Shown here: in pieces, positions 6,343 through 36,815 of the stretch
Numbering within the stretch: the stretch's first letter is position 1
Layout of the letters: the number at the start of each line of letters is the position of its first letter
DNA from: a virus
UHGV virus genome: UHGV-0220213
DNA length: 37,467 bases
Direction: 5' to 3' (one strand)
Made by a program: the position numbers and the translations under genes
Notes under the pieces: model-generated
What the model saw: only the letters and a program-made list of their open reading frames with translations
The model's database searches: none
What the model was told of the DNA's origin: nothing

Positions 6343-6343
6343 T

Positions 6344-9240: not shown

Positions 9241-9307
9241 GTCACCATAATCCCGCACCTGCCATCTGATTTTTTAGACTGCCATCAGAGCATTTTTTCA
9301 GGGAAGC
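9241..9307 (+). promoter_or_regulatory. Candidate C-dependent late promoter Plys
   Basis: Intergenic region directly upstream of the endolysin gene. Assigned by position only. Confidence 0.4.
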
Positions 9308-11135: not shown

Positions 11136-11146
11136 CAGGAGGCGTG

Positions 11147-11722: not shown

Positions 11723-11729
11723 GAGGGTT

Positions 11730-18886: not shown

Positions 18887-18895
18887 CCGTCATTA

Positions 18896-18918
18896 AAAGG
18901 CGGTTCAGACCGCCTTTT
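18896..18918 (+). terminator. Intrinsic terminator/attenuator hairpin after the major capsid gene
   Basis: Stem AAAGGCGG / CCGCCTTT with loop TTCAGA, followed by TTTT. Confidence 0.65.
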
Positions 18919-18952
18919 AACCTGATTTAAAGGAAAAGGAGGAGCATGTGTT

Positions 18953-19363
18953 ATGTCAGGCACTTCGCTTAATTCACAATGGCTGGACACTTCTCACATC
19001 ACTTGCACGGCGATTATTAAATGCCTTCGTCCGGTCTACCGCCGCGCCGGAATCGCCTTTACACGTGGCGAAAACACCGTGGAAGTCACCGAAGAACAAC
19101 TGGCGATCATTCGTGCCGACAGCGTGCTGTCTGTGGTATCTGCATCGTCAGCAGAAACGCTCGCTGAGGCTGGGGGGCTGGACGTTCTGGGTGTGGGCGA
19201 TCTGAATACCCGTATCCGTGCGACCGTTGCCGGTCTGGATAAGGCAAACCCGGAGCACTTTACCGCAGGGGGAGAACCCAAAGTGAAAGCCGTCAGTGCG
19301 GCGCTGGGAGAACCGGTGAGCAGTGCGCAAATCAAAGCGGCGCTGGCTGAGGCGGATGCATGA
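18953..19363 (+). CDS. Head-region protein (Mu gp35-like, 136 aa)
   Basis: SD AAGGAGGAG about 10 nt upstream of the ATG at 18953. Confidence 0.6.
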   Translation: MSGTSLNSQWLDTSHITCTAIIKCLRPVYRRAGIAFTRGENTVEVTEEQLAIIRADSVLSVVSASSAETLAEAGGLDVLGVGDLNTRIRATVAGLDKANPEHFTAGGEPKVKAVSAALGEPVSSAQIKAALAEADA

Positions 19364-19785
19364 ATTACGCGACGGTAAATGACCTGTGCGCCCGCTATAC
19401 ACGTACGCGGCTGGATATTCTCACCCGCCCTAAAACAGCGGACGGTCAGCCGGATGATGCCGTGGCAGAACAGGCACTGGCAGATGCTTCGGCCTTTATT
19501 GATGGCTATCTCGCCGCGCGCTTTGTTCTGCCGCTTACCGTCGTCCCCTCACTGCTGAAACGGCAGTGTTGCGTGGTGGCCTGGTTTTATCTGAATGAAT
19601 CACAACCCACAGAGCAGATCACCGCAACTTACAGGGACACGGTGCGCTGGCTGGAACAGGTGCGCGATGGCAAAACAGATCCCGGTGTGGAAAGCAGGAC
19701 GGCAGCCTCGCCGGATGGCGAAAACCTTGTGCAGGTGCAGTCTGACACGCCGGTCTTCTCACGAAAACAGAAGGGGTTTATCTGA
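19360..19785 (+). CDS. J: Head-tail connector/neck protein J (141 aa)
   Basis: ATGA overlaps on both sides; Mu gp36 position and size. Confidence 0.75.
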   Translation: MNYATVNDLCARYTRTRLDILTRPKTADGQPDDAVAEQALADASAFIDGYLAARFVLPLTVVPSLLKRQCCVVAWFYLNESQPTEQITATYRDTVRWLEQVRDGKTDPGVESRTAASPDGENLVQVQSDTPVFSRKQKGFI

Positions 19786-20333
19786 TGCTGGAAGAAACCG
19801 AAGCCGCACTGCTGGCGCGCGTTCGTGAGTTGTTTGGGGCAACCTTGCGGCAGGTGGAACCCCTTACCGGCACATGGACTAACGAGGATGTACACCGTCT
19901 CTTTCTGGCCCCTCCATCGGTATTTCTGGCATGGATGGGCTGTGGTGAGGGGCGTACGCGTCGGGAAGTTGAAAGTCGCTGGGCATTTTTTGTCGTGGCG
20001 GAGTTGCTGAACGGGGAACCGGTAAACCGGCCCGGTATTTATCAGATTGTGGAGCGACTGATTGCCGGTGTTAACGGTCAGACGTTTGGCCCGACCACCG
20101 GGATGAGACTGACGCAGGTCAGAAATCTTTGTGACGACAACCGTATCAATGCCGGTGTGGTGCTTTACGGCGTTCTGTTCAGTGGCACTACCCCGCTGCC
20201 GTCCGTGGTGGACATGGATTCGCTGGATGATTACGAGCGTCACTGGCAGACCTGGAAATTCCCGGACGAAACCCCGGAATTTGCCGCACATATCAATGTG
20301 AATCAGGAAAAGGATCATGATGCTGAAAATTAA
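19785..20333 (+). CDS. K: Tail completion/neck protein K (182 aa)
   Basis: Mu gp37 position and size. Confidence 0.75.
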   Translation: MLEETEAALLARVRELFGATLRQVEPLTGTWTNEDVHRLFLAPPSVFLAWMGCGEGRTRREVESRWAFFVVAELLNGEPVNRPGIYQIVERLIAGVNGQTFGPTTGMRLTQVRNLCDDNRINAGVVLYGVLFSGTTPLPSVVDMDSLDDYERHWQTWKFPDETPEFAAHINVNQEKDHDAEN

Positions 20334-20523
20334 ACCCGCAGCGGGAAAAGCCATCCGTGACCCGCTCACGATGAAATTACTGGCTCCGGAGGGAGAAGAA
20401 AAGCCCCGTAACAGTTTCTGGATACGTCGCCTTGCAGCCGGTGATGTGGTTGAAGTCGGGAGCACCGAAAACACGGCGGATGATACCGACACTGCGCCGA
20501 AAAAACGGAGTAAATCGAAATGA
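20317..20523 (+). CDS. Small late protein (Mu gp38-like, 68 aa)
   Basis: ORF overlapping both neighbours; acidic/basic C-terminus. Confidence 0.5.
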
Positions 20524-22007
20524 GCGATATTTCATTTAACGCGATCCCGTCAGATGTTCGCGTTCCTCTGACGTATATCGAATTTGATAACAGTAATGCC
20601 GTCAGCGGAACACCGGCACCCCGTCAGCGCGTGCTGATGTTCGGGCAAAGCGGAAGTAAAGCCAGTGCGGCACCAAATGTGCCTGTCCGTATCCGTTCCG
20701 GCTCACAGGCCAGTGCGGCGTTTGGTCAGGGTTCCATGCTGGCACTGATGGCAGATGCATTCCTGAACGCTAACCGCGTGGCGGAGCTGTGGTGTATTCC
20801 GCAGGGGAACGGCACCGGTAATGCTGCTGTCGGTGAAATTTCACTGTCAGGAACGGCAGGCGAAAACGGCTCGCTTGTGACTTACATTGCCGGTCAGCGA
20901 CTGGCGGTATCTGTCGCAGCAGGTGCAACGGGAGCGGCGCTGGCTGACCTGCTGGTTGCCCGAATCAAAGGCCAGCCTGATTTACCGGTGACGGCAGAAG
21001 TTCGCGCAGACAGCGGGGATGATGACACCCATGCAGATGTGGTTCTGAGTGCAAAATTTACGGGTGCATTATCTGCCGTGGACGTGCGCTGGAACTATTA
21101 CGCGGGTGAAATCACCCCTTACGGGATTATCACGGCATTCAAAGCCGCCTCCGGGAAAAATGGCAACCCGGATATCAGCGCAAGTATCGCGGGAATGGGC
21201 GATCTGCAATACAAATATATTGTGATGCCCTATACCGATGAACCGAACCTGAATCTGTTACGCACTGAATTGCAGGAACGCTGGGGACCGGTCAATCAGG
21301 CTGATGGCTTTGCCGTGACAGTGCTGTCCGGCACGTATGGGGATATTTCCACGTTTGGTGTCAGCCGTAATGACCATCTGATTTCCTGTATGGGGATTGC
21401 CGGTGCACCGGAACCGTCATATCTGTACGCCGCCACACTGTGTGCCGTTGCCAGCCAGGCGCTTTCCATCGACCCGGCGCGTCCACTCCAGACGCTGACG
21501 TTGCCCGGAAGAATGCCGCCTGCGGTGGGGGATCGTTTCACCTGGTCAGAACGTAATGCGCTGCTGTTTGACGGCATCTCCACGTTTAACGTGAATGATG
21601 GTGGTGAAATGCAGATTGAACGCATGATCACGATGTACCGCACAAACAAGTACGGTGACAGCGATCCGTCTTATCTGAACGTGAATACCATCGCCACGCT
21701 GAGTTATCTGCGTTATTCGCTGAGAACCCGCATCACGCAGAAATTCCCGAACTACAAGCTGGCAAGTGATGGCACCCGCTTTGCCACCGGTCAGGCCGTG
21801 GTGACGCCATCCGTGATCAAAACGGAGCTGCTGGCATTGTTTGAAGAATGGGAAAACGCCGGACTGGTCGAGGATTTCGACACGTTCAAAGAGGAGCTGT
21901 ATGTGGCACGTAACAAGGACGACAAAGACCGTCTTGATGTGCTGTGCGGCCCGAATCTGATTAACCAGTTCCGCATTTTCGCGGCACAAGTTCAGTTCAT
22001 TCTGTAA
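20520..22007 (+). CDS. L: Contractile tail sheath protein L (495 aa)
   Basis: 495 aa as Mu L. Confidence 0.9.
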
Positions 22008-22016
22008 GGAGCATTT

Positions 22017-22373
22017 ATGGCTGGAAATCAGCGTCAGGGGGTGGCGTTCATCCGTGTCAATGGCATGGAGCTTGAAACGATGGAAGGTGCCTCCTTCACA
22101 CCTTCCGGCATCACCCGTGAAGAAGTGACCGGCTCGCGGGTTTATGGCTGGAAAGGTAAACCACGTGCCGCAAAGCTGGAATGCAAAATTCCGGGCGGTG
22201 GTGATATCGGTCTGGATGAAATCATCGGCTGGGAAAATATCACGGCAGAGTTTCAGGCAGACACCGGTGAAACCTGGATGATGGCGAATGCCTGGCAGGC
22301 AGATGAACCGAAAAACGACGGCGGCGAAATTTCGCTGGTACTGATGGCAAAACAAAGCAAACGCATTGCATAA
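22017..22373 (+). CDS. M: Tail tube protein M (118 aa)
   Basis: 118 aa; directly after the sheath gene. Confidence 0.85.
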   Translation: MAGNQRQGVAFIRVNGMELETMEGASFTPSGITREEVTGSRVYGWKGKPRAAKLECKIPGGGDIGLDEIIGWENITAEFQADTGETWMMANAWQADEPKNDGGEISLVLMAKQSKRIA

Positions 22374-22382
22374 GGGGAAACA

Positions 22383-22817
22383 ATGGACGAAATGAATTTA
22401 GGTCCTGAAGCACAGGAACTGCATGACAGCATTGTGGCAGAAATTCAGTCCGGCGTGCTGAAACTGAAAGACGGCCTGCCGTTCGGCACCGGTGACGAGA
22501 CTGAAATGCAGTATGACGTGACACTGCGTGAACTGACCGCAGGCGATATGATTGATGCACAGGCGGCTGCTGAAAAGCTGGTAATGAGCAAGGAAGGTCC
22601 GGTGCTGGTCAGTTCCCCGTCCCGGATGGGACTGGAAATGCTGCGCCGACAGATTGCCAGCGTGGGCTGCATCAAAGGCCCGTTGTCGATGGCGCTGATT
22701 CGTAAGCTGTCTGTCGATGACTTCCAGCGTCTGTCGCTGGCCACAGAAATGTACGACATGGCTGTGGCGGCATCGCTGACACAAGAACGGGGGCGAGTGG
22801 CTGCGGTGCCGGAATGA
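22383..22817 (+). CDS. Y: Tail assembly chaperone Y (144 aa)
   Basis: Position between the tube and tape-measure genes; acidic protein. Confidence 0.7.
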   Translation: MDEMNLGPEAQELHDSIVAEIQSGVLKLKDGLPFGTGDETEMQYDVTLRELTAGDMIDAQAAAEKLVMSKEGPVLVSSPSRMGLEMLRRQIASVGCIKGPLSMALIRKLSVDDFQRLSLATEMYDMAVAASLTQERGRVAAVPE

Positions 22818-22961
22818 TATTGAGAAAGCGGCGACAGCGATTGGCGTTATTCTGAAAAGTGGCCCGGAATGGGCCTTATCCCTCCCGCTGTCCCGCTTTT
22901 TCCGGCACTGCCAGCAGGCTAAAACCCTCTCTCAATATCACCGTTAAATCAGGAAATCTCT
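22818..22961 (+). promoter_or_regulatory. Intergenic region upstream of the tape-measure gene, candidate late promoter
   Basis: 144 bp gap in an otherwise overlapping gene array; 12-bp inverted repeat ATATTGAGAAAG / CTCTCTCAATAT and a GGCCC...GGGCC dyad. Confidence 0.35.
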
Positions 22962-25034
22962 ATGACCGGGAAACGCTTAAAGGCGTCTGTCATTATTGAT
23001 CTTAATGGCAATCTTTCCCGGCGTTCCCGCCAGTATTCGAACCAGATAAACGCCCTGTCCCGTAGCGGTCAAAGTTCCCTTCGAGCCCTGCGTATGGAGG
23101 TTGTGCGCGTTTCTGGTGCCATTGACAGAATGGGTTCACTGTCAACCCGTACATTCCGAATGCTGTCAGCCGGGGCGCTGGGTATCGCTGGCGTGGGTTA
23201 CACCGCCAATAAACTGTTTATTGGTGCAGCCGCCCAGCGTGAGCAGCAGATCATCGCCATGAACTCGCTGTATCACGGCGATAAGGTCAGAGCGCAGGCC
23301 ATGATGGCCTGGGCGAAGCAGAACGCGAAGGACACCACGTGGGGGCTGAGTGGTGTTCTTGATGAGATCCGTTCGTCGAAAGGCTTCGGCATGACGGATG
23401 AACAGACGAAACAGTTCATCACCATGTTGCAGGATCAGGGGGCCATGCACGGCTGGGATTTACCCACTGCACAGGGTGCCTCACTGCAACTGAAACAGAT
23501 GTTTGCCCGCCAGCAAATCACAGCGGCGGATGCCAACCTGCTGACCGGTTACGGTATCAACGTTTATCAGGCGCTGGCTGATGCAACGGGAACGGACGTT
23601 AAAAAAATCCGTGATCTGGGTACAAAGGGCAAGCTGGGCATGAAATCCATTCTGACGGTATTCAGAACGCTGTCAGAACAGTCAAAAGGTGCACAGGCCA
23701 GTGCGATGAACTCCTGGGACGGGATGTTCGCCCAGATGGAAGCCAACCTGCTTGAATTTCGCATAAAGGTGGCAAACAGCGGCCCCTTTGAAGAAATCAA
23801 GAACGAGATGCGCCGGGTGCTTAACTGGCACGACATGGCGGATAAATCCGGGGAACTTGATGCACTGGCAGAAAACATTGGTCAGAAATTTCTGACCACA
23901 TTCAGAACGGTAAAAATCGCGGCGCAGGAATTATGGCGCTGGCTGAAACCGGGTAAAGATGCGCTGGCATGGGTTGACCAGAATATTGTCAGCCTGAAAA
24001 AACTGGCTGCTGTTCTGGTGTCTGTCTGGCTTGCCAATAAAGCCCTGAGAGCAGGCTGGGCCGTGGCAAAACCCTCATGGCAGGTTGCCAGTTATCCGTT
24101 TAAAACCGGGCGTCGTATGTGGCGCTGGATGCGAAACCGCAAACGTGGGCAGGCAGGTCTGCCGGTCCCGGATGCCATGACGTCTGAGACGCTGTTGCAG
24201 GGTATCGGCATTCAGCGTGTGTTTGTCATCAACTGGCCCCGTGGATTGGGTGGCTACGGGAGTGGCGGCGGTCGTCGCGGACGGAGCGGCGGAAGAATGG
24301 CCCCGCTGTTACCCCGCCAGCCGTTATTGCTGTCCGGGCCACAGCCGCTGGCATTACCTGCACCACGCCCTGTACTGGCATTACCCCCACCCGGCGTACC
24401 GGTAACGGCACGGCCTGCACCATTACCTTTACCCGGTAAATCAGGTCTTCTGAGCAGGCTTGCAGGCAGTGCTGCCGGGCAACTGGTTACAGGAACGGTC
24501 GGAAAGCTGGCTGATGCCGGGCGTGCTGTTGGCGGGTGGTTTTCCGGTATCGGAAACAAACTTGCAGGCAGTGCGATCGGTCGGGTTGTGACAAAAGGTG
24601 CCGGGGCGCTGGGCTGGATGGGGAAAGGTGCCGGTCGTGCGTTGTCACGTCTGGGTGGCCCGGTAATGGGGGCGCTCCAGCTTGCCCCCGTCCTGATGGA
24701 TGAGCAGGCGTCAACCCATGAAAAAGCAGGCGCAATTGGCAGTACAGCCGGTGCATGGCTCGGCGGTGCCGTTGGCAGCCTTGCCGGACCGCTGGGTACG
24801 GTTGCCGGTGCCACGCTGGGCAGTGTCGCCGGGGAGTATCTGGGCGGCTTTGTAACCGACCTGTATCAGAAATGGACGGCCACGGATAAGGAACCGCAGG
24901 AACAAAAAGTGAATGCGGAAGCCTCGCTGCGCGTCGAACTCGGCGAGGGGTTACGTCTGACCAGTTCCCGCGTCACCGAGGATGGTATGGGGCTGAATAT
25001 TTACGCGGGCGATAACTACATTACGGGCTGGTAA
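22962..25034 (+). CDS. Tail tape measure protein (690 aa)
   Basis: Large protein after the chaperone; Gly/Ala-rich low-complexity C-terminal third. Confidence 0.85.
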
Positions 25035-25038
25035 AACC

Positions 25039-26526
25039 ATGTTTGAAGATGCTTTAAATGCCGTTAATGCTGTCCGGGATAAAACTGGTGGAGGCAGGAA
25101 AACAACCGGCAAAGGCACGTTCCGTAACGTGCCGTTTCTCGTCATCGAGGAGCAAAAACAGGCTGGCGGACGTCGCCTGGTTAAACGCGAGTACCCGTTA
25201 CGTGATACCGGCGGCGTCAATGACCTGGGGAAAAAGCTTCGCTCCCGTACATTCAGCGCCTGCATTCTGAACAGCAACGCAGAAACAGCCAGAGATGAAG
25301 CGGGTGCGCTGATGGATGCTCTTGATGCTCCGGGTAGCGGTGAGCTGGTACATCCTGATTTCGGCACTGTGGACGTCATGGTGGATTCATGGGAATGCCG
25401 CACTAAAGCGGATGAACTGAATTATTACGCATTCACCGTTACCGTTTATCCGTCGTTGCAGGATACTGCCCCGGACTCAGAGACAGACACCAGTGCAGCC
25501 GTACCGGCACAGGCCGTTGCTGTAACCGGTTCTCTGGGAGATACGCTGTCCTCTGTCTGGCAGACCGTAAAAGATGGCACTGCGGCGGCAACCGCCGTGA
25601 TGGAAGCTGTAACCGGTGTCATCGATGATATCAGTGATGCGGTGGACAATCTGGGGGTTACGCAGACTGTCAGCGGTCTGATGGGATCGCTTTCTGCGAT
25701 GAAAGGCTCTGTGACCAGCCTGATTAACCAGCCTGCCATGCTGGCCTCCTCGCTGATGGGGGCGCTGTCCGGCGTTTCATCGTTATGCGATACCCGGACA
25801 GCATTTTCCACCTGGAACCGTCTGGCGCAGCGATTCGAACGTCGCCATGCCGCCACCACAGGCAGACAGGGGACAATCACAACCTCGTACAACAGTCCGG
25901 TTGCAGAAAAAAATATTGCCACACTGAACTACGTCATGCTGGCAGCGGCGCAGACATACCGGGCGGAGGCAGCAAGCCAGGCACTGACTGCGGCACTGGA
26001 TTTCAGTCGCCGGATGGATAATGCCGCCCGTGCACCTGTACTGGATGCCCCGTCCACCACAACCGGCACAGCCAGCGGGGCCAGCAGCACATCTGCTACC
26101 GTCACACAGGGACAGTTACAGTTAACTGCCATAACCCCGGACGGCGGCTTTTCACAGGTATCCTTTTCAGACAGTGGTACAGCCACGCCCCCGGTATTTG
26201 AAAGTGTGTCCGATATCGGAAAAACAGCCGCCATGCTGGGGGCTGCACTGGATACCGTCATTCTGACGGCATCTGAGCAGGGCTTTTCGACAGACAGCGT
26301 TCAGCTTACGCAACTGCGTCTGCTGGTTGTTGCCGACCTGGAAAAACGCGGGCTGCAACTGGCGGGCAGTGAAACGCACCGCCTGCCGGAGACGATGCCT
26401 GCAATGGTGGCCCTGTACCGTTACACAGGAAACAGCCGGAACTGGCAACGGCTGGCCCGCAGGAACGGTATCAGCAACCCGTTGTTTGTTCCCGGTGGTG
26501 TCAGTATTGAGGTGATTAATGAGTAA
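25039..26526 (+). CDS. N: Protein N, DNA circularisation/tail protein (495 aa)
   Basis: 495 aa as Mu N. Confidence 0.8.
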
Positions 26527-27658
26527 TACCGTCACGCTGCGAACGGATGGCAGGCTTTTTACCGGCTGGACGTCAGTCTCTGTCACCCGCTCCATTGAAT
26601 CCGTAGCCGGATATTTTGAGCTGGGGGTGAACGTGCCACCGGGCACGGATTTATCCGGGCTGGCACCGGGGAAGGCGTTCACGCTCGAAATCGGGGGGCA
26701 GATTGTCTGCACCGGTTATATCGATTCACGGCGACGCCAGATGACCGCTGACAGTATGAAAATCACTGTCGCCGGACGTGACAAAACGGCTGACCTGATT
26801 GACTGTGCTGCCGTTTACAGTGGCGGACAGTGGAAAAACCGCACACTGGAGCAGATTGCGCGTGACCTGTGCACCCCTTATGGCGTTACCGTTCGCTGGG
26901 AGCTTTCCGATAAGGAAAGTTCGGCAGCTTTTCCCGGCTTCACGCTGGACCATTCAGAAACCGTTTATGAGGCGCTGGTGCGTGCCTCCCGCGCACGCGG
27001 TGTACTGATGACCAGCAATGCCGCCGGAGAGCTGGTATTCAGCCGGGCTGCCAGCACAGCCACTGATGAGCTGGTTCTCGGAGAAAATCTGCTGACACTG
27101 GATTTTGAGGAAGACTTCCGCGACCGGTTCAGCGAATACACCGTCAAGGGGTATGCCCGCGCAAACGGTGCTGAGGGTGATGATATTGATGCGAAAAGTA
27201 TCGTCTCCCGGAAAGGGACCGCCACTGACAGTGATGTGACCCGTTACAGACCGATGATCATCATTGCCGACAGCAAAATTACGGCGAAGGATGCACAGGC
27301 CCGCGCCCTGCGTGAGCAACGCCGCAGACTGGCAAAATCCATCACCTTTGAGGCTGAAATTGACGGATGGACTCGCAAGGACGGGCAACTCTGGATGCCG
27401 AACCTGCTGGTCACTATTGATGCCTCGAAATATGCCATCAAAACCACGGAATTACTGGCCAGCAAAGTCACCCTGATACTGAATGACCAGGACGGGCTGA
27501 AAACCCGCGTCAGCCTTGCACCACGCGAAGGCTTTCTGGTGCCGGTTGAAAGCGACCGTAAAAACAGGAAAGGCGGCGACAGTAACGGCGGTATTGATGC
27601 GCTGGTTGAAGATTATTATCGCAGACACCCGGAGAAAACGCCGCCGTGGAAAGAGTAA
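26519..27658 (+). CDS. P: Baseplate hub protein P (379 aa)
   Basis: 379 aa; Mu gp44 position. Confidence 0.8.
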
Positions 27659-28239
27659 ATGATTCCGCCCTGAACCGCCTGCTGACGCCGCTGATGCGTC
27701 GTGTGCGCCTGATGCTTGCGCGCGCTGTTGTTAACGTGATTAACGACGGGCGAAAGGTTCAGAACCTGCAGGTCGGTCTGCTGGATGATGAGGAATCCGA
27801 TGAAGTGGAGCGCCTGCAAAATTACGGACATTTCAGCGTTCCCCTGCCGGGCGCAGAGGCGCTGATTGCCTGTGTGGGTGCACAACGTGATCAGGGGATC
27901 GCCGTTGTGGTGGAAGACCGCCGCTACCGCCCGACAAATCTTGAACCGGGTGATGCAGGCATTTACCACCACGAGGGGCATCGTATCAGGCTGACAAAGG
28001 ACGGACGCTGCATCATTACCTGTAAAACGGTTGAGGTTTACGCTGATGAAGGCGCGACCGTTGACACCCCGAAAGCCACGTTTACCGGAGATGTTGAAAT
28101 TCTGAACGGCCTCAGCGTTAAAGGTGAAAGTGACTTTGCAGGCAATATCAGCGCCCCGGATGCCATCATCAATGGCAAATCGACGGATAAGCATATCCAC
28201 CGTGGCGACAGCGGCGGAACCACAGGGCCGATGCAATGA
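27646..28239 (+). CDS. Baseplate spike/puncturing protein (Mu gp45-like, 197 aa)
   Basis: Size and order as Mu gp45. Confidence 0.75.
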   Translation: MERVNDSALNRLLTPLMRRVRLMLARAVVNVINDGRKVQNLQVGLLDDEESDEVERLQNYGHFSVPLPGAEALIACVGAQRDQGIAVVVEDRRYRPTNLEPGDAGIYHHEGHRIRLTKDGRCIITCKTVEVYADEGATVDTPKATFTGDVEILNGLSVKGESDFAGNISAPDAIINGKSTDKHIHRGDSGGTTGPMQ

Positions 28240-28673
28240 CCGATTTAGCCATTATCTGGACGAACGGACGCGGCGATATTGCGCAGGATGGTATTGATAT
28301 GCTGACCGACGACAGCCTGACAACCGATGTGACAATCTCCCTGTTTACCGACCGGCGCGCGCTGGATTCTGACACGCTGCCGGATGGTTCAGATGATCGC
28401 CGTGGATGGTGGGGTGACAGTTACCGCGACCGCCCCATCGGTTCGCGGTTGTGGCTGTTATCACGTGAAAAAGCCACGCCGGATACACTGGAACGCGCCA
28501 GAGGGTATGCCGAAGAGGCGCTGGAATGGCTGAAAACAGCGGGCCGGGTAAGTGCGATTAACGTCAGAGCGGAACAGTTACATCAGGGCTGGTTATACCT
28601 CTACATTGCACTGACATTACCGGATGGTTCCGTTATTCCTTATGAGTTTAAAGCAGCATTTAACGGGGTTTAA
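28236..28673 (+). CDS. Baseplate wedge protein (Mu gp46-like, 145 aa)
   Basis: Size and order as Mu gp46. Confidence 0.75.
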   Translation: MTDLAIIWTNGRGDIAQDGIDMLTDDSLTTDVTISLFTDRRALDSDTLPDGSDDRRGWWGDSYRDRPIGSRLWLLSREKATPDTLERARGYAEEALEWLKTAGRVSAINVRAEQLHQGWLYLYIALTLPDGSVIPYEFKAAFNGV

Positions 28674-29756
28674 ATGGCTTATTCACCACCGACATTATCA
28701 TCGCTGATTGCCCGTACAGAACAGAATATTGAACAGCGCCTGCCGGGTAGCTGGCCTCAGGCCCGTGAAAAAACGCTGAGTGCCATTGCTTATGCTCAGG
28801 CGGGCCTTGCTGCCGGTTGTCACGAGCATATTTCATGGGTTGGACGGCAGATTATCCCGTCGACAGCAGATGAAGATGAGTTGCTGGAGCACTGCCGGTT
28901 CTGGGGCGTGCGCCGCAAACAGGCGACAGCCGCCAGCGGCCCGCTGACTGTCACCACATCGGCAGCGACCACCATTCCTGCCGGTACACGCTGGCAGCGT
29001 GCTGATGGTGTGGTTTACAGCCTGGCTGATGCCATTGTGATTGACCGTGCAGGAACGACGGAAATTACCGTTACCGCACTGGCTGCCGGTGAAGCAGGAA
29101 ATACCGGTGAGAATACCCTTTTAACGTTGATCACCCCGGTTGCCTGTGTTGTTTCCGATGCCATCACTGTAAAAGGGTTTTCCGGTGGGGCTGATATTGA
29201 GAGTGCAGCGGAGCTGCTGTCACGGCTGGAATATCGTGTCCAGTATCCTCCGTTCGGCGGTAATCAGTTTGATTACGTCCGCTGGGCACGTGAAGTCAGC
29301 GGCGTTACCCGTGCCTGGTGTTTTCCGACATGGAAAGGCGGTGGCACAGTCGGGGTGACGTTTGTTATGGATAACCGGAGCAATATTTTTCCACAACCGG
29401 CAGACGTGGAACGCGTGGCAGATTATATCGCCGGTCATACTGACCCGATCACCGGTCTGATTGTCGGACAGCCTGACGGTGTAAATGTCACTGTATTTGC
29501 GCCAAAGGCAAAGCCGGTAAATCCACGGATTTATATATCACCGAAGACAGCCGAACTGAAACAGGCTATTACCCACGCCATTAATACCATGTTTTTTAAT
29601 GAGGTGACGCCGGGCGGCGCACTTGCCCCCTCCCGTATTATCCGTGCGGTGGCAGGTGTTACCGGTCTGGATGATTTTGAAGTGCGTTTCCCGACAGAGA
29701 TCCAGCGTTCGGAGAATACGGAACTGTTAACACCGGGGACAATTGAATGGCTGTAA
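28674..29756 (+). CDS. Baseplate J-like protein (Mu gp47-like, 360 aa)
   Basis: Size and order as Mu gp47. Confidence 0.75.
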   Translation: MAYSPPTLSSLIARTEQNIEQRLPGSWPQAREKTLSAIAYAQAGLAAGCHEHISWVGRQIIPSTADEDELLEHCRFWGVRRKQATAASGPLTVTTSAATTIPAGTRWQRADGVVYSLADAIVIDRAGTTEITVTALAAGEAGNTGENTLLTLITPVACVVSDAITVKGFSGGADIESAAELLSRLEYRVQYPPFGGNQFDYVRWAREVSGVTRAWCFPTWKGGGTVGVTFVMDNRSNIFPQPADVERVADYIAGHTDPITGLIVGQPDGVNVTVFAPKAKPVNPRIYISPKTAELKQAITHAINTMFFNEVTPGGALAPSRIIRAVAGVTGLDDFEVRFPTEIQRSENTELLTPGTIEWL

Positions 29757-30289
29757 CACCCTATCAGACGGCCTTTCTGCAATTACTGCCGTCAGGGCTT
29801 GCCTGGAATAAAAGCCCCGACAGCAAATTATCTGCGCTGGCGCAGGCCATCAGCGACGTGATTGCCACTGCGGCGGATGATGCGCGGCAAATGCTGCGGG
29901 AGCGTTTCCCGTCCACATCCCGCTGGTATCTGGGGGAGTGGGAATCATTTCTGGGGTTGCCGGACTGTACCAGCGAAAACGGCACCCTGTCCGAACGCCA
30001 CCGGGCTGCCGCGAATAAAATGCGTATGACCGGCAATCTGAGTCGGCGCTTTTATGAATGGCTGGCTGCGCAGTACGGTTTTACCGTCAGGCTGACGGAT
30101 TCCACAGAAGGCCAGTGGGTTACGCAGGTCAATATTTACGGTATTAAAAATTATCGCAACGCAACGGTGCTGGATAATGTTCTGACGCCGTTACGTGTTT
30201 ATGAATCGGGTGCGCTGGAATGTTTACTGGAGAAATATAAACCCGCGCATCAGATTTATAAATTTGTTTACCATGACGGAGATAACTAA
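29747..30289 (+). CDS. Baseplate/tail protein (Mu gp48-like, 180 aa)
   Basis: Size and order as Mu gp48. Confidence 0.7.
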   Translation: MAVTPYQTAFLQLLPSGLAWNKSPDSKLSALAQAISDVIATAADDARQMLRERFPSTSRWYLGEWESFLGLPDCTSENGTLSERHRAAANKMRMTGNLSRRFYEWLAAQYGFTVRLTDSTEGQWVTQVNIYGIKNYRNATVLDNVLTPLRVYESGALECLLEKYKPAHQIYKFVYHDGDN

Positions 30290-31755
30290 TGTTTTATATT
30301 GATAACGACAGCGGCGTAACCGTCATGCCGCCCGTATCCGCCCAGCGTAGTGCTATCGTTCGCTGGTTTTCAGAAGGTGACGGGAATAATGTTATCACAT
30401 GGCCCGGCATGGACTGGTTTAATATTGTGCAGGCGGAGTTATTAAACACGCTGGAAGAAGCCGGTATTCAACCGGATAAAACAAAATTAAACCAGCTTGC
30501 ACTGTCCATTAAAGCCATTATGAGCAATAACGCGCTGCTGATAAAAAATAACCTCAGCGAAATTAAAACTGCCGGGGCATCAGCACAGCGTACAGCACGT
30601 GAAAATCTGGATATCTATGATGCCAGCCTGAACAAAAAAGGACTCGTTCAGCTAACCAGTGCCACTGACAGCCCCAGTGAAACGCTGGCAGTCACCGCAA
30701 AAGCGGTGAAAATTGCGATGGATAATGCCAATGCCCGTCTGGCAAAAGACCGGAACGGAGCAGATATTCCCAATAAGCCGCTGTTTATCCAAAACCTCGG
30801 TTTACAGGAAACGGTAAATCAGGCTTCTGGCGCATTACAGAAAAACCAGAACGGCGCAGATATTCCGGGGAAAGATACCTTCACCAAAAATATTGGGGCC
30901 TGCCGCGCATATAGCGCATGGCTGAATATTGGTGGCGATAGTCAGGTCTGGACAACCGCGCAATTTATTTCGTGGCTGGAGAGTCAGGGAGCATTTAACC
31001 ATCCTTACTGGATGTGCAAAGGCTCATGGGCTTATGCAAATAATAAGGTCATTACAGATACAGGTTGCGGAAATATTTGTCTTGCAGGTGCTGTGGTGGA
31101 AGTTATTGGCACTCGCGGCGCAATGACCATACGCGTTACTACGCCGAGCACGTCCAGCGGTGGCGGAATTACTAACGCTCAATTCACTTATATTAATCAT
31201 GGTGATGCTTATGCTCCTGGCTGGCGACGAGACTACAACACGAAAAATCAACAACCTGCATTTGCTTTAGGGCAAACAGGAAGCACTGTCGGAAATGATA
31301 AAGCTGTTGGCTGGAACTGGAATAGCGGGGTCTATAACGCAAATATTAGTGGCGCATCGACATTAATCCTCCACTTCAATATGAATACGGGGAGTTGCCC
31401 TGCTGCACAGTTCCGCGTGAATTACAGAAATGGCGGTATCTTTTATCGTTCAGCGCGTGATGGTTATGGCTTTGAAGCTGACTGGTCAGAGTTTTACACC
31501 ACAACCCGCAAACCCTCTGCGGGAGATGTTGGTGCATATACGCAGGCAGAATGTAACTCAAGGTTTATTACAGGTATTCGCCTTGGCGGTCTGTCATCTG
31601 TTCAGACATGGAATGGTCCCGGCTGGTCTGACAGGTCAGGTTATGTCGTTACGGGTTCAGTTAACGGAAACCGTGATGAATTAATTGATACAACTCAGGC
31701 AAGGCCAATTCAGTATTGCATTAATGGGACTTGGTATAACGCGGGAAGTATTTAA
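30289..31755 (+). CDS. S: Tail fibre protein S: constant part Sc fused to variable part Sv inside the G segment (488 aa)
   Basis: ORF crosses the left G inverted repeat at 30785-30818, which encodes QNLGLQETVN; C-terminus resembles that of S'. Confidence 0.85.
   Translation: MFYIDNDSGVTVMPPVSAQRSAIVRWFSEGDGNNVITWPGMDWFNIVQAELLNTLEEAGIQPDKTKLNQLALSIKAIMSNNALLIKNNLSEIKTAGASAQRTARENLDIYDASLNKKGLVQLTSATDSPSETLAVTAKAVKIAMDNANARLAKDRNGADIPNKPLFIQNLGLQETVNQASGALQKNQNGADIPGKDTFTKNIGACRAYSAWLNIGGDSQVWTTAQFISWLESQGAFNHPYWMCKGSWAYANNKVITDTGCGNICLAGAVVEVIGTRGAMTIRVTTPSTSSGGGITNAQFTYINHGDAYAPGWRRDYNTKNQQPAFALGQTGSTVGNDKAVGWNWNSGVYNANISGASTLILHFNMNTGSCPAAQFRVNYRNGGIFYRSARDGYGFEADWSEFYTTTRKPSAGDVGAYTQAECNSRFITGIRLGGLSSVQTWNGPGWSDRSGYVVTGSVNGNRDELIDTTQARPIQYCINGTWYNAGSI
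30785..30818. repeat. Left 34-bp inverted repeat of the G segment (gix-type Gin crossover site)
   Basis: TTATCCAAAACCTCGGTTTACAGGAAACGGTAAA matches the reverse complement of 33704-33737 with one mismatch. Confidence 0.9.
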
Positions 31756-31757
31756 TT

Positions 31758-32291
31758 ATGATGCACTTAAAAAACATTACCGCTGGTAATCCTAAAACAG
31801 TGGAGCAGTACCAGCTAACAAAGCAATTTAACATTAAGTGGCTTTATTCAGATGATGGAAAAAACTGGTATGAGGAACAAAAGAATTTCCAGCCAGACAC
31901 TTTGAAAATGGTCTATGACCATAACGGCGTTATTATTTGTATTGAAAAGGATGTTTCAGCAATTAATCCGGAAGGCGCAAGCGTCGTTGAATTACCTGAT
32001 ATTACAGCAAATCGCCGGGCTGATATTTCGGGGAAATGGTTGTTCAAAGATGGCGTAGTGATAAAGCGAACTTATACCGAGGAAGAGCAGAGGCAACAAG
32101 CGGAAAATGAAAAGCAAAGCCTGTTGCAACTTGTCAGGGATAAAACCCAGCTATGGGACTCACAGCTACGGCTGGGCATCATTTCCGACGAGAATAAACA
32201 AAAATTAACCGAGTGGATGCTCTATGCGCAGAAAGTCGAATCTACAGACACCTCCAGCCTGCCAGTAACGTTTCCCGAACAACCAGAATGA
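31758..32291 (+). CDS. U: Tail fibre assembly chaperone U (177 aa)
   Basis: Paralogous to the minus-strand U' (shared N-terminal LKNI..GNPKT..EQYQLTK). Confidence 0.85.
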   Translation: MMHLKNITAGNPKTVEQYQLTKQFNIKWLYSDDGKNWYEEQKNFQPDTLKMVYDHNGVIICIEKDVSAINPEGASVVELPDITANRRADISGKWLFKDGVVIKRTYTEEEQRQQAENEKQSLLQLVRDKTQLWDSQLRLGIISDENKQKLTEWMLYAQKVESTDTSSLPVTFPEQPE

Positions 32292-32319
32292 GAGAAGGCC
32301 CGATATTGGGCCTTAATTT

Positions 32320-32847
32320 TTACTCAGGCTTTTGTGGCCATTCGGGATTTGCTGTATCCACACGGCTGACCAGAACGCTGTAGCGTTCCCATGACTCCAG
32401 TCGTGTGCGTTCCTCATCCGTCGCCATATTCAGCCTGACAGCGCGTTCCAGTGGCTGAATAACGCTTTCAGCTTCAGAAAGCAACGCGACCTTTTGTGAT
32501 TCGGCCTGTTGTTGCTGTTCGTCTGCTGTATAAATCCGCTTAACCACAGTTCCGTCCTTAAACATCCACTTCCCTGAATCATCGGCACGACGATTGGCTG
32601 TTATATCTGGAATCTCAACGACACTAAAGCCTTCGGGATTAAGCGTTGAGGCATCTTTGGTGATGGCAACAATAATATTATTTTCGTCGTATACAATCTT
32701 TATGGTGTCGTCCTGAAAGTTATTTACTTCCTCATACCAGTTTTTACCGTCTTCGGACCATAACCAGATAACATCAAAATTCTTTGTTAGCTGATATTGT
32801 TCTTTTGTTTTTGGATTTCCGGACTTAATATTTTTTAAATGCTGCAT
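32320..32847 (-). CDS. Alternative tail fibre assembly chaperone U' (175 aa)
   Basis: Minus-strand paralogue of U inside the G segment. Confidence 0.85.
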
Positions 32848-32850
32848 AAT

Positions 32851-33703
32851 TTACACCTGTGCGACGTTATACCATGTGCCATTGATGTATTTTTGTATTG
32901 GTCTGAAGATGGCTTCATCATCGCCATCTACTTCACCAATGATTCTTAATCCGGTAATTGCGTGTCCGGCTTTTTCATAACGACCACCACGCGCCATCAA
33001 TTGAACAACACGCGTACCCAGGCGAACATCTTTTACATAGCGTGAATCAAAATTCCCCCAGTTGCTGGGCTGCATCTGACCGTTAACAGAAAATATTACC
33101 GAGTTATCTGTATTTCGCTGGCTATAGAAATGCCATCCTGCCTCATCGCCTAACTCTGCAACTACTGGACGGGTTGAAGCACCCCATAAATTAAACGTTG
33201 CATTCTTTGTGGAGTTGTTGGAGCTGGATAGCGTGAATTTTTTACCATCCCCGGCCTGAATATTTTTAAAAGCAATAGCCACTCCATTCTGAAAGCGGAA
33301 TACACGCTGACTATTAGCATAAACATCCAGAATACCGTCTCCATTCTGTTTAAATCCGGTGTCATTATCACCAAGAACAATAGAGCTACCACCTAACGCA
33401 TTCGTCGAACCAACTCCAAGACTGCCATTAATGACAGCATTAACAAGAATATTTAGTGCATCCCATTTCAGCGTCATCAGGTCTTTTGTTGTGGTGCTCT
33501 GGCGGCTTCTCCATTTGAAATATTCATTGCCGTTGTCGCCTGTTTCAAACCACATGTATGAATCAGTGTCACCATCGGCATCATTTTTAAATCCAATCTT
33601 CGCCCAGTCAGTATTTCGAATCCAGGCAAGGATTGAGTCATTTTCAAAAGTAAGCCCACCGGACAAGGTATCGCCATTTTTTTGCACGGCGTTACCAGCC
33701 CTG
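32851..33703 (-). CDS. Sv', alternative variable part of the tail fibre (no own promoter; fuses to Sc after inversion)
   Basis: Minus-strand frame stays open from 32851 through the right inverted repeat, where it also encodes NLGLQETVN; C-terminus homologous to S. Confidence 0.8.
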
Positions 33704-33737
33704 TTTACCGTTTCCTGTAAACCGAGGTTTTAGATAA
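33704..33737. repeat. Right 34-bp inverted repeat of the G segment (gix-type site)
   Basis: TTTACCGTTTCCTGTAAACCGAGGTTTTAGATAA, reverse complement of the left repeat with one mismatch. Confidence 0.9.
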
Positions 33738-33791
33738 TGGTTGTTTCCGGCCTGCATGGCATGATTTGCGCTTTTAAACGGGAGATCCAGA

Positions 33792-34409
33792 GTGCTGATT
33801 GGCTATGTAAGGGTATCAACAAATGACCAGAATACAGACCTGCAACGAAACGCTCTTGTTTGTGCAGGATGTGAACAAATATTTGAAGATAAATTAAGCG
33901 GAACAAGGACAGACAGACCTGGATTAAAACGCGCGTTAAAGCGCCTTCAAAAAGGTGACACACTGGTTGTCTGGAAACTGGATCGCCTCGGGCGAAGCAT
34001 GAAACATCTGATTTCCCTCGTCGGGGAACTACGGGAGCGAGGGATTAATTTTCGCAGTCTTACCGACAGCATAGACACATCTTCTCCAATGGGGCGTTTT
34101 TTCTTCCACGTTATGGGTGCCCTGGCTGAAATGGAACGAGAACTAATCATCGAGCGAACGATGGCTGGACTTGCTGCCGCCAGAAATAAAGGCCGTATTG
34201 GTGGGCGACCACCTAAACTAACCAAAGCGGAATGGGAGCAGGCCGGGCGTTTATTAGCACAAGGAATCCCCCGCAAGCAGGTTGCATTGATCTATGATGT
34301 GGCTCTGTCAACTCTGTATAAAAAACACCCCGCGAAACGAACGCATATAGAAAACGACGATCGAATCAATCAAATCGATCGGCAATACAGATCGATTATG
34401 CCCCAATAA
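33792..34409 (+). CDS. gin: Gin, serine-recombinase DNA invertase (205 aa, GTG start)
   Basis: N-terminus MLIGYVRVSTNDQ with the catalytic serine motif; Hin/Gin/Cin family; adjacent to the right repeat. Confidence 0.9.
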   Translation: MLIGYVRVSTNDQNTDLQRNALVCAGCEQIFEDKLSGTRTDRPGLKRALKRLQKGDTLVVWKLDRLGRSMKHLISLVGELRERGINFRSLTDSIDTSSPMGRFFFHVMGALAEMERELIIERTMAGLAAARNKGRIGGRPPKLTKAEWEQAGRLLAQGIPRKQVALIYDVALSTLYKKHPAKRTHIENDDRINQIDRQYRSIMPQ

Positions 34410-34467
34410 CCACACTCAACCCACGATGTTTTTTAAGATAGTGGCGAATTGATGCAAAGGAGGTGAG
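34359..34467 (+). promoter_or_regulatory. mom operon control region: three clustered GATC (Dam) sites and the Pmom region
   Basis: GATC at 34359-34362, 34377-34380 and 34390-34393, 75-110 bp upstream of com; strong SD AAAGGAGGTGAG before com. Confidence 0.6.
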
Positions 34468-34656
34468 ATGAAATCAATTCGCTGTAAAAACTGCAACAAA
34501 CTGTTATTTAAGGCGGATTCCTTTGATCACATTGAAATCAGGTGTCCGCGTTGCAAACGTCACATCATAATGCTGAATGCCTGCGAGCATCCCACGGAGA
34601 AACATTGTGGGAAAAGAGAAAAAATCACGCATTCTGACGAAACCGTGCGTTATTGA
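34468..34656 (+). CDS. com: Com, zinc-finger translational activator of mom (62 aa)
   Basis: 62 aa with CxxC...CxxC (CKNC...CPRC); overlaps the 5' end of mom. Confidence 0.9.
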
Positions 34657-35320
34657 GTATGAAGGCCAGATTGTTGGCTATGGTTCAAAGGAACTGCGCG
34701 TTGAAACCATATCCTGTTGGCTGGCCCGCACAATTATTCAGACAAAGCACTATTCCCGCCGTTTTGTGAATAACTCTTACCTTCATCTGGGGGTATTCAG
34801 CGGACGCGATCTGGTTGGCGTTCTCCAGTGGGGATATGCCCTTAACCCCAACTCAGGTCGTCGTGTCGTGCTTGAAACGGATAACCGGGGCTATATGGAG
34901 TTGAACCGCATGTGGCTACACGACGACATGCCCCGCAACTCTGAATCACGGGCCATCAGCTACGCGCTGAAAGTTATCAGATTACTGTATCCGTCAGTGG
35001 AGTGGGTTCAGTCCTTTGCTGACGAACGCTGCGGACGCGCAGGCGTTGTGTATCAGGCGTCGAATTTTGATTTTATTGGCAGCCATGAAAGCACGTTCTA
35101 CGAGCTGGATGGTGAGTGGTATCACGAGATAACGATGAACGCGATTAAGCGAGGTGGACAACGAGGCGTGTATTTACGGGCTAATAAAGAGCGTGCCGTG
35201 GTGCACAAATTTAATCAGTATCGCTACATCAGATTCCTGAACAAGCGAGCAAGGAAGCGGCTAAATACCAAGCTATTCAGGGTTCAGCCATACCCTAAGA
35301 GATCCCCATGGAATGAATAA
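34577..35320 (+). CDS. mom: Mom DNA-modification (anti-restriction) enzyme; exact start uncertain
   Basis: Last phage gene, reading frame overlaps the 3' end of com; in-frame candidate starts ATG 34577 and GTG 34607. Confidence 0.8.
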
Positions 35321-35322
35321 AA

Positions 35323-35349
35323 AGCAGTAATTAATACTGCTGTTTCATT
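35323..35349 (+). terminator. Terminator-like hairpin after mom
   Basis: Stem AGCAGTA / TACTGCT with loop ATTAA, followed by GTTTCATTT. Confidence 0.5.
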
Positions 35350-35417
35350 TGAAGCGCGAAAGCTAAAGTTTTCGCATTTATCGTGAAACGCTTTCGCGTT
35401 TTTCGTGCGCCGCTTCA
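35341..35417. repeat. Mu right end (attR) with three transposase-binding repeats (R3, R2, R1)
   Basis: TGTTTCATTTGAAGCGCGAAAG (35341-35362), then two opposite-orientation copies ending ...CGTGCGCCGCTTCA at 35417. Confidence 0.85.
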
Positions 35418-35740
35418 GCGAACACAATACACAATGCAGAAACCAGTAGCGTATTGAGCAGGCCGACAATAAAAACGCGTCCGTAAGTGTCGCCTTGCTG
35501 ATAATCAATCAAATGCTGAACGATGCCAAAACCGGCCCCGCGGTCAAGAAAAGCAAATCCTGATGTTATGCCGCGATTACTGAGATTCGTTACAGTGTTG
35601 TGAAATAACCAACCAATAATGCCGACAACAGCAACAACGGCAAGGATCTGGAATAACCAGGCGCGAACCGTAGGGTTGGCAAAAGAGAGTGAGCCTTTAA
35701 CGGTTGAGCGGCGATGAGACATAGAAACCTCGGAAAGCAT
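35418..35740 (-). pseudogene. yhdX: 5' fragment of an amino-acid ABC transporter permease gene (yhdX-like) interrupted by the prophage
   Basis: Minus-strand ORF starts at 35740 with TM-rich permease N-terminus and runs into the phage end, terminating in phage DNA at 35378; only about 107 codons are host-encoded. Confidence 0.7.
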
Positions 35741-35789: not shown

Positions 35790-36815
35790 TTAACGCACGG
35801 GCGGCGCGTACTGAATACCGCCGTTATTCCAGAGATTATTTTGCCCACGTTTAATTTTCAGCGGGCTTTCTGAACCTACGTTACGCTCGAAAATTTCCGA
35901 GTAGTTACCCACCTGTTTGATGATGTTAAAGGCCCATTTATTATCCAGCTTCAGATCCTTGCCGTAATCGCCTTCTTTACCCAGCAGATGTGCCATATCA
36001 GGCGTTGCTGGATTAGCCGCTTTTTCATCGACGTTCTGGGAATTGATGCCCATCTCTTCAGCATTCAGCATGGCGAAAAGCGTCCAGCGTACAATCGAGA
36101 ACCATTCATCATCGCCACGACGAACTACCGGCCCAAGCGGTTCTTTAGAGATAACTTCCGGTAAGACAATCCATTCAGCTGGGTTGCTTAATTTGATGCG
36201 CAGGGCATACAGTTGTGATTGATCCGAGGCTAGCGTATCGCAGCGACCAGATTCCAGTGCCTTCGCTGATTCGTCAGAGCGATCGAAAGTCACTGGTGTG
36301 TACTTCATATTGTTTGCCTTGAAGTAATCGGCAACATTGAGTTCAGTATCAGTACCCGCCTGAATACAGACGGTAGCGCCATCCAGTTCTTTCGCGCTTT
36401 TTAGCCCCGCTTTATCGTGCGTCAGGAAGCCAATGCCGTCGTAATAAGTGACGCCAGTAAATGCCATTCCCATCCCGGCATCGCGAGATGAAGTCCAGGT
36501 CGTATTACGGGAGAGCAAATCCACCTCCCCTGACTGTAAAGCGGTGAAGCGTTCTTTTGCAGTGAGCGGGGTATATTTCACTTTCGTATCGTCACCGAAT
36601 ACAGCAGCGGCAACGCCACGACAAACATCTACATCAATACCTGAAAACTTACCGTCAGCATCGGCATAAGAGAACCCAGGTAATCCATCACTGATCCCGC
36701 ATTGCACAAAACCTTTTTTCTGAACGGCATCAAGCGTCGCGCCAGCATGCGCCTGATTTGCAACGGCAAGCAGCACGCTGGCGGCAGCCAGTGTGGCTAT
36801 CATCATCTTTTTCAT
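35790..36815 (-). CDS. yhdW: Periplasmic amino-acid-binding protein of an ABC transporter (341 aa)
   Basis: Signal peptide MKKMMIATLAAASVLLAVANQAHA; solute-binding protein features; upstream of the permease gene. Confidence 0.75.
   Translation of the reverse strand: MKKMMIATLAAASVLLAVANQAHAGATLDAVQKKGFVQCGISDGLPGFSYADADGKFSGIDVDVCRGVAAAVFGDDTKVKYTPLTAKERFTALQSGEVDLLSRNTTWTSSRDAGMGMAFTGVTYYDGIGFLTHDKAGLKSAKELDGATVCIQAGTDTELNVADYFKANNMKYTPVTFDRSDESAKALESGRCDTLASDQSQLYALRIKLSNPAEWIVLPEVISKEPLGPVVRRGDDEWFSIVRWTLFAMLNAEEMGINSQNVDEKAANPATPDMAHLLGKEGDYGKDLKLDNKWAFNIIKQVGNYSEIFERNVGSESPLKIKRGQNNLWNNGGIQYAPPVR

What the first reader, a model, noticed from the sequence alone, without database searches (positions are those of the whole stretch)
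35341..35740. Phage right end inserted inside a yhdX-like ABC permease gene
The Mu-type end sequence stops at 35417 and is followed directly by the 5' part of a minus-strand permease ORF, which reads from 35740 into the phage end and terminates on phage sequence. This is the signature of transposition-mediated insertional inactivation, not site-specific integration. The 5 bp GCGAA (35418-35422) would be the target-site duplication if the same 5 bp precedes the left end. The host operon is transcribed toward the phage, so transcription from it would read into the right end.
Basis: partly seen in the sequence, partly recalled or inferred. Interest (0 to 1): 0.5.

Follow-up and report, generated by a model that had tools for sequence, protein, structure and literature searches.

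The report
Mu-like prophage inserted in yhdX
The right end of a transposable Mu/D108-type prophage sits inside the E. coli amino-acid ABC-transporter permease gene yhdX and cuts it after codon 102; this is the ordinary, textbook result of Mu-type transposition.

Summary
The phage sequence ends at 35417 with the exact terminus of phage Mu (…GCGCCGCTTCA). From 35418 on, the DNA is 100% identical to yhdX/yhdW of E. coli FDAARGOS_536, where the gene is whole and reads …ACAGAA-GCGAA-CACAAT.

The interrupted ORF keeps 102 of 393 native residues. It adds 12 phage-encoded residues and stops at TAA 35378-35380. It lacks the permease domain (residues 221-388).

The same phage, 100% identical over 12 kb, lies at 10 other unrelated loci, so integration is transpositional and not site-specific.

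I could not read the left junction as DNA. However, the predicted 289-aa 3' yhdX fragment exists exactly once in the protein collection, on a 66,657-bp contig. That is the length of the ENA contig carrying this right junction. This places the left junction within about 7 bp of the right one.

Three complete-genome relatives show perfect 5-bp duplications at the same ends. GCGAA fits the Mu target core (Y-S-R).

One nuance for the read-in claim: a terminator-like hairpin (35323-35341, T-run on the minus strand) lies about 76 nt inside the end.

Verdict: real, correctly interpreted, already known biology, low interest.

The parts
1..35417 (+). Right-hand 35.4 kb of a Muvirus (Mu/D108-type) prophage. 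The window starts just after ner; the left end lies about 1,271 bp before window base 1, for a total of about 36,688 bp.
   Evidence: 97.9% identical to D108 over window 1-25000 and 98.1% to Mu from base 196. The left end TGTATTGATTCAC lies 1,271 bp upstream of window base 1 in 10 identical copies.
8..1999 (+). Transposase A (662 aa), with a D108-type N-terminal DNA-binding domain.
   Evidence: Translation. Pfam HTH_Tnp_Mu_1, HTH_Tnp_Mu_2, DDE_2 and Mu-transpos_C on the identical protein. The Mu DNA match starts only at window 196, whereas the D108 match starts at base 1.
34577..35320 (+). mom, the last phage gene.
   Evidence: Pfam Mom, E = 3e-75.
35323..35341 (.). Palindromic terminator-like hairpin (7-bp stem, 5-nt loop) just after mom. 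On the minus strand it is followed by TTTTATTCAT, so it faces transcription entering from the host.
   Evidence: Found on both strands by the terminator scan. The stem is perfect here and in MB06231, but has two mismatches in the Mu reference. Function was not tested.
35341..35417 (+). Mu-type right end (attR), ending in ...CGCTTCA.
   Evidence: Identical to the terminus of AF083977. Four RYRCGAAAR transposase-site cores lie at 35354-35362 (+), 35369-35377 (-), 35391-35399 (-) and 35400-35408 (-).
35418..35422 (.). GCGAA: the right copy of the predicted 5-bp target-site duplication.
   Evidence: First five host bases after the phage end. They occur once in the intact locus. They fit N-Y-S-R-N, like 13/13 control sites. 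The left copy was not read.
35418..35722 (-). 5' fragment of yhdX (codons 1-102 of 393).
   Evidence: 100% identical to yhdX of FDAARGOS_536. 102 N-terminal residues are identical.
35378..35722 (-). Fusion ORF of 114 aa: YhdX residues 1-102 plus 12 phage-encoded residues, with stop TAA at 35378-35380. The longest-ORF start is 35740.
   Evidence: The exact protein is called on three public contigs. It has no Pfam domain.
35790..36815 (-). Intact upstream gene of the operon, the periplasmic amino-acid-binding protein (yhdW position), transcribed toward the phage.
   Evidence: ORF of 341 aa. Pfam SBP_bac_3. RefSeq annotation of the identical DNA.

Best explanation
A Mu/D108-type transposable phage integrated by MuA-catalysed transposition into the chromosome of an E. 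coli closely related to FDAARGOS_536. The target was the pentamer GCGAA inside yhdX, the first permease gene of the yhdW-X-Y-Z amino-acid ABC-transporter operon.

Mechanism (established Mu biology). The transpososome assembles on the L and R end sites. It joins the 3'-OH of the terminal CA at each end to target phosphates staggered by 5 bp. Host repair then fills the gaps and leaves a 5-bp direct repeat.

Result.
- yhdX is split after codon 102. The 5' part is translated into 12 phage-encoded residues and stops in the right end.
- The 3' part (about 290 codons, with the permease domain) lies beyond the left end, 36.7 kb away.
- yhdY and yhdZ are cut off from the operon promoter.
- The transporter is therefore inactivated, while the binding-protein gene stays intact.

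Shown here: the exact phage end; the exact host breakpoint; truncation of the ORF; many insertion sites for the same phage; the 3' fragment on a contig of the same length; and 5-bp duplications in relatives.

Inferred: the GCGAA copy at the left junction; the polar loss of yhdYZ expression; and termination of host read-in at the hairpin 35323-35341.
For: - The phage end is identical to the Mu terminus and stops at 35417.
- The host sequence from 35418 is 100% identical to the intact locus of FDAARGOS_536. The 10-kb host flank of the source-like contig L003 differs from that strain by 1 base in 10,050.
- L003 equals the window over 12,090 bp.
- An identical MuA with identical DNA over 12 kb sits in 10 different host contexts. 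All 10 left-flank pentamers fit N-Y-S-R-N.
- Three complete genomes show perfect 5-bp duplications at the same ends.
- The predicted 289-aa yhdX 3' fragment is on record on one contig of 66,657 bp, the length of L003's contig.
- Geometry: that contig has 5,960 bp left of the phage. This matches yhdX'-yhdY-yhdZ plus the 3' part of the rrnD operon in the intact locus.
- The fusion product lacks BPD_transp_1.
- The Mu 5-bp target consensus CYSRG is a property of MuA (PMC7350765).
Against: - The DNA of the left junction was never read.
- The 289-aa gene call only bounds the junction to offsets -7 to +6.
- GCGAA matches only the central Y-S-R of the preferred CYSRG.
- Equating the two 66,657-bp contigs rests on their equal length and their source (ENA), not on a record name.
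Confidence: 0.92

Rival explanations
1. The host DNA is the variable end of packaged virion DNA. Mu headful packaging carries up to about 2-3 kb of host DNA on the right end (established knowledge). On this reading it is not a stable prophage junction.
For: The window itself shows only 2,050 bp of host DNA on the right, which is within the packaging range.
Against: The identical contig L003 continues at least 10 kb into host DNA on the right. By its coordinates it runs about 24 kb right and about 6 kb left of the phage, far beyond what a Mu head holds. Variable ends are heterogeneous and would not assemble into one junction in three assemblies.
Confidence: 0.01
2. Assembly chimera: a metagenome assembler joined a Mu-like phage end to an unrelated E. 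coli contig.
For: The junction is known only from metagenome and read-archive assemblies. It is absent from 5,426 complete genomes and from the JGI, GTDB and IMG/VR collections.
Against: - The junction falls exactly at the last base of the Mu end.
- The flanking pentamer fits the Mu target core.
- Three assemblies made by different pipelines give the same 114-aa fusion gene.
- The matching 3' gene fragment appears on a contig of the same length.
A chimera would not respect the transposon terminus to the base.
Confidence: 0.02
3. The right junction is real but the prophage is no longer flanked by both halves of yhdX. A Mu-mediated deletion, inversion or second transposition would have moved the left end to another locus, so no GCGAA repeat exists.
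For: The left junction DNA was not obtained. Mu is known to cause adjacent deletions and inversions (established knowledge).
Against: The exact 289-aa 3' fragment of this yhdX allele starts 8-10 nt from the breakpoint. It is recorded on a single 66,657-bp contig. The left host flank of 5,960 bp matches the distance from the site into rrnD.
Confidence: 0.04
4. Site-specific integration into an attB within yhdX, or a naturally short permease gene.
For: None beyond the single locus seen in the window.
Against: - The same phage sits at 10 or more other loci, plus 3 more in relatives, with no shared flanking sequence.
- Only a DDE transposase (A) with MuB is present; the only recombinase-family gene is gin, next to the invertible G segment.
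- yhdX is 393 aa and continuous across the site in 5,294 of 5,426 genomes.
Confidence: 0.005

Closest known systems
Escherichia phage Mu (AF083977 / NC_000929), the prototype transposable 'mutator' phage
   Same: The right-end terminus matches base for base. The com-mom-attR layout is the same. It shares gin with the invertible G segment, A/B transposition genes, and 98.1% DNA identity from window 196 to 25000. It inserts into genes with 5-bp target duplications (PMC7350765; controls).
   Different: The first ~195 bp of the window, coding for the N-terminal DNA-binding domain of transposase A, do not match Mu. The hairpin after mom is perfect here and imperfect in the Mu reference.
Escherichia phage D108 (GQ357916 / NC_013594)
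   Same: Best overall match: 97.9% over 97% of window 1-25000, starting at base 1, so the transposase N-terminus is D108-type. The repressor next to identical copies is 174 aa, with a 73-aa Ner.
   Different: D108 carries a D108-specific gene 56 before its right end, and its last ~150 bp differ outside the terminal ~45 bp. The window has the Mu arrangement there.
Mu-like prophages in sequenced E. coli (SE11, FDAARGOS_1058, 20AH011, W, MB06231 and others)
   Same: They have the same ends. They interrupt host genes (an Rpn-family gene, yidA, tonB-yciA region, rhsB), and 3 of 3 examined have perfect 5-bp duplications. 96 of 5,426 complete genomes carry such a right end.
   Different: They sit at other insertion sites. 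None of the complete genomes has the yhdX insertion.

Membership tests
Muvirus (Mu/D108) transposable prophage | Terminal sequences 5'-TG...CA-3' with clustered MuA-binding sites at the right end | tested here: met
   The last 77 bp are identical to the Mu terminus. Four RYRCGAAAR cores lie within 35354-35408. The left end TGTATTGATTCAC is present in 10 identical copies.
Muvirus (Mu/D108) transposable prophage | DDE transposase A plus the AAA+ target-capture protein B | tested here: met
   Pfam DDE_2, Mu-transpos_C and HTH_Tnp_Mu_1/2 on the 662-aa A protein. Phage-MuB_C on the 312-aa B protein in the identical DNA.
Muvirus (Mu/D108) transposable prophage | Insertion at many unrelated sites (no attB) | tested here: met
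   Ten different host contexts for the identical phage, one of them an F-type plasmid tra region. Different neighbouring genes occur across 96 complete genomes.
Muvirus (Mu/D108) transposable prophage | 5-bp target-site duplication flanking this particular insertion | tested here: inconclusive
   The right copy GCGAA is seen. The left junction DNA was not retrievable. The 289-aa fragment bounds the offset to -7 to +6, with +5 compatible. Relatives show 3/3 perfect 5-bp repeats.
Muvirus (Mu/D108) transposable prophage | Target pentamer fits the Mu consensus (N-Y-S-R-N; preferred CYSRG) | tested here: met
   In GCGAA the centre C-G-A equals Y-S-R. 13/13 control pentamers fit as well. The consensus comes from PMC7350765. 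The outer C and G of the preferred form are not matched.
Muvirus (Mu/D108) transposable prophage | Invertible G segment with gin, and com-mom at the right end | tested here: met
   gin at 33792-34409, com at 34468-34656 and mom at 34577-35320. Inverted repeats at 30785-30845 and 33677-33737.
YhdX, permease of the YhdWXYZ amino-acid ABC transporter | Full-length 393-aa protein with a BPD_transp_1 domain (residues 221-388) | tested here: not met
   Only residues 1-102 are encoded in the window, and the 114-aa fusion has no Pfam hit. The intact homologue has the domain. The window therefore holds a disrupted gene, not a functional member.

The most novel reading that the evidence does not exclude
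The yhdX::Mu allele may not be a neutral accident. On this reading it marks a circulating gut E. coli clone in which loss of the YhdWXYZ amino-acid importer is selected, or in which yhdW-promoter transcription and translation running across the R1-R3 transposase sites affects prophage stability or mom expression. The junction recurs in three public assemblies, but these may come from the same or related samples. Nothing here tests selection or read-in effects.
Probability: 0.04. Interest if true: 0.35.

Novelty: already known. Interest (0 to 1): 0.08.

Why it matters
It matters little beyond annotation. The locus should be annotated as a yhdX pseudogene split by a Mu/D108-type prophage, and the strain should be predicted to lack the YhdWXYZ transporter.

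It does add one more documented natural insertion. Together with the loci fetched here, it shows that an essentially identical transposable phage is actively hopping among natural E. coli chromosomes and plasmids. That may interest people surveying Mu-like prophages.

Tried and rejected
1. No complete E. coli genome carries this junction, so I could not read both ends from one.
2. The exact left-junction pattern CAGAAGCGAATGTATTGATTCACTTG gave 0 hits in JGI metagenomes, GTDB genomes and IMG/VR. The right-junction pattern is also absent there, so these negatives say nothing.
3. The look-up of the 120-aa longest ORF found nothing on record. The 114-aa version worked.
4. I tried to reach the left part of contig k113_82245 through the transposase, with flanks of 10 kb and 7 kb, and through gp6. 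The contig was never among the 10 places shown. gp6 is far too widespread (3,589 blocks).
6. I made exact look-ups of ten hypothetical plus-strand chimeric ORFs, one for each junction offset from -4 to +9. None is in the collection. This is uninformative, because such small ORFs need not be called.
7. NZ_OZ040355.1, a complete genome with the identical phage, is not in the RefSeq set. I used SE11, FDAARGOS_1058 and 20AH011 as duplication controls instead.
8. The BLAST extension of the MB06231 hit 21 bases past the phage end is chance similarity of the flanks, not a shared site.

Full report
**Observation.**
- Window 35268-35417 aligns with the last 150 bases of the phage Mu reference genome AF083977, and the last 77 bases are identical. 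Both end in ...GTGCGCCGCTTCA, so 35417 is the last phage base.
- The same terminus is joined to quite different host DNA in strain MB06231 (rhsB) and in three other complete genomes.
- Four matches to the transposase-site core RYRCGAAAR lie within 35354-35408, out of only 12 in the whole 37-kb window.
- From 35418 to the end of the window, the DNA is 100% identical to E. coli FDAARGOS_536. That record annotates an intact 393-aa yhdX, preceded by an amino-acid-binding protein gene and followed by yhdY, yhdZ and the rrnD operon.
- In the intact locus the site reads ...CCCAAAACAGAA GCGAA CACAATAC. The host breakpoint is therefore unambiguous apart from one coincidentally shared A.

**The interrupted ORF.** The minus-strand ORF 35378-35740 is real. 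The start used by RefSeq in the identical host DNA is ATG 35722, which has GAGG five bases upstream. The start at 35740 is only the longest-ORF start. The product has 102 native residues followed by EAAHEKRESVSR, and it stops at TAA 35378-35380 inside the phage end. It has no Pfam domain. The BPD_transp_1 domain of the intact protein spans residues 221-388. The region across the insertion site is continuous in 5,294 of 5,426 complete E. coli genomes. The short ORF is therefore not a natural form.

**What the phage is.** Window 1-25000 is 97.9% identical to D108 from base 1. It is 98.1% identical to Mu, but only from base 196. The transposase N-terminus is thus D108-type. The right end is Mu-type and lacks D108 gene 56. 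The window begins just after ner. In ten identical copies the left end TGTATTGATTCAC lies 1,271 bp upstream of window base 1, which gives a prophage of about 36,688 bp.

**Transposition, not site-specific integration.** The exact 662-aa transposase was found on contigs from many assemblies. In the ten places shown, the DNA matches window 1-11996 with 0-1 mismatches, yet the left flanks are ten unrelated loci (suf, kefC, dgo, cedA, an F-type tra region, treF/treA-type genes, nan, csc and others). All ten flanking pentamers fit N-Y-S-R-N, and so does GCGAA (C-G-A in the centre). The published preference is CYSRG and is a property of MuA (PMC7350765). Ninety-six of 5,426 complete genomes carry a Mu-like right end, next to many different genes. 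In SE11, FDAARGOS_1058 and 20AH011, the same two ends are flanked by perfect 5-bp repeats (CCGAT, TCCGC, GTGGT), and the host gene is annotated as two partial pieces in two of the three.

**The left junction of this insertion.**
- No complete genome has this insertion.
- The 114-aa fusion gene is on three public contigs. One of them, ENA ERZ27267311 k113_82245 (66,657 bp), is identical to the window over 12,090 bp. Its host flank differs from FDAARGOS_536 by one base in 10,050.
- By its coordinates, the phage left end should lie at about position 5,961 of that contig. That leaves 5,960 bp of host DNA, which equals the distance from the site through yhdX', yhdY, yhdZ and the 5S/tRNA-Thr/5S genes to just inside the 5' end of the 23S gene in the intact locus. 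An assembly would be expected to break there.
- I built the predicted left junction with a 5-bp duplication. In the yhdX frame, the phage end supplies a TGA 9 nt from the junction. The first start codon is then a TTG that gives a 289-aa fragment.
- That exact 289-aa sequence is in the protein collection, from ENA and Logan, on one contig whose length is 66,657 bp.
- A scan of alternative junction offsets shows what this gene call constrains. The left flank must end between 7 bp short of and about 6 bp beyond the right-flank start, and one frame in three is disfavoured. The 5-bp duplication is compatible.
- The DNA itself could not be fetched. Pattern scans of other collections were uninformative, because those collections lack the right junction too. 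Ten hypothetical chimeric small ORFs were not on record.
- Conclusion: the two halves of yhdX flank the prophage on one contig and meet within a few bases. The GCGAA repeat is a strong inference, not an observation.

**Consequences and the read-in claim.** yhdW-like, yhdX, yhdY and yhdZ are all on the minus strand, so the operon is indeed transcribed toward the right end. Ribosomes stop at 35378. About 37 nt further in lies a 7-bp-stem hairpin (35323-35341). On the minus strand it is followed by TTTTATTCAT, and the terminator scan picked it up on both strands. Host transcription would therefore cross the transposase sites but probably ends before mom. This is inferred from sequence only. yhdY and yhdZ are separated from their promoter by 36.7 kb of phage, so the transporter is predicted to be non-functional (inference).

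**Rivals.**
- Packaged virion DNA with a variable host end is excluded by the roughly 24 kb and 6 kb of host DNA on the contig.
- An assembly chimera is unlikely. The break falls exactly at the transposon terminus, and three assemblies agree.
- A rearranged left end is made unlikely by the 289-aa fragment.
- Site-specific integration and a naturally short gene are refuted.

**Verdict.** This is a real, correctly read and entirely conventional Mu-type insertional disruption of a non-essential transporter gene. The kind of event has been known since Mu was named the 'mutator' phage. Interest is low.

Noticed in passing
window 1-11996; loci L006-L015: The early region of this prophage is 100% identical (one copy has 1 mismatch) in ten assemblies from NCBI, ENA and Logan, at ten different insertion sites. 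One site is in an F-type plasmid tra region (L010). This points to one phage genotype spreading and transposing very recently in natural E. coli.
   Followed up: partly
window 1-195 versus 35268-35417: The phage is a mosaic. The left part is D108-type (transposase N-terminal domain; 174-aa repressor and 73-aa Ner in identical copies). The right end is Mu-type: mom is followed directly by attR, without D108-specific gene 56.
   Followed up: partly
window 30785-30845 and 33677-33737: These are the inverted repeats of the invertible G segment (61 nt, 80% complementary). Two of the three public contigs that carry the yhdX junction (L004, L005) end at window 33704, inside the right repeat. That is expected if G is present in both orientations in those samples.
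   Followed up: partly
window 35323-35341: The hairpin after mom has a perfect 7-bp stem here and in MB06231. The Mu reference has two mismatches in the stem (ACATCTG in place of ACTGCTG).
   Followed up: no
E. coli genome search with window 35118-35417: Ninety-six of 5,426 complete E. coli genomes carry a Mu-like right end (114 places). A genome has up to 4 places, and 4 places are on plasmids. Lab strains such as S17-1 and ST18 appear, and they are known to carry Mu-derived DNA.
   Followed up: no
L002 3200-3260 (E. coli MB06231, NZ_CM129886.1): A related Mu-like prophage is inserted in rhsB, which is annotated as an incomplete pseudogene. The first ~20 flanking bases there resemble the yhdX flank by chance, which extended a BLAST hit past the phage end.
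   Followed up: yes
window 1 and 37467: Both window borders fall on gene borders. Base 1 follows the ner stop codon, and base 37467 is the first base of the start codon of a 73-aa membrane/lipoprotein gene on the minus strand. The left phage end was therefore excluded by how the window was cut.
   Followed up: no
window 35790-36815: The binding-protein gene at the yhdW position is intact here (341 aa, SBP_bac_3). From memory, yhdW is a pseudogene in K-12, but I did not check this here.
   Followed up: no
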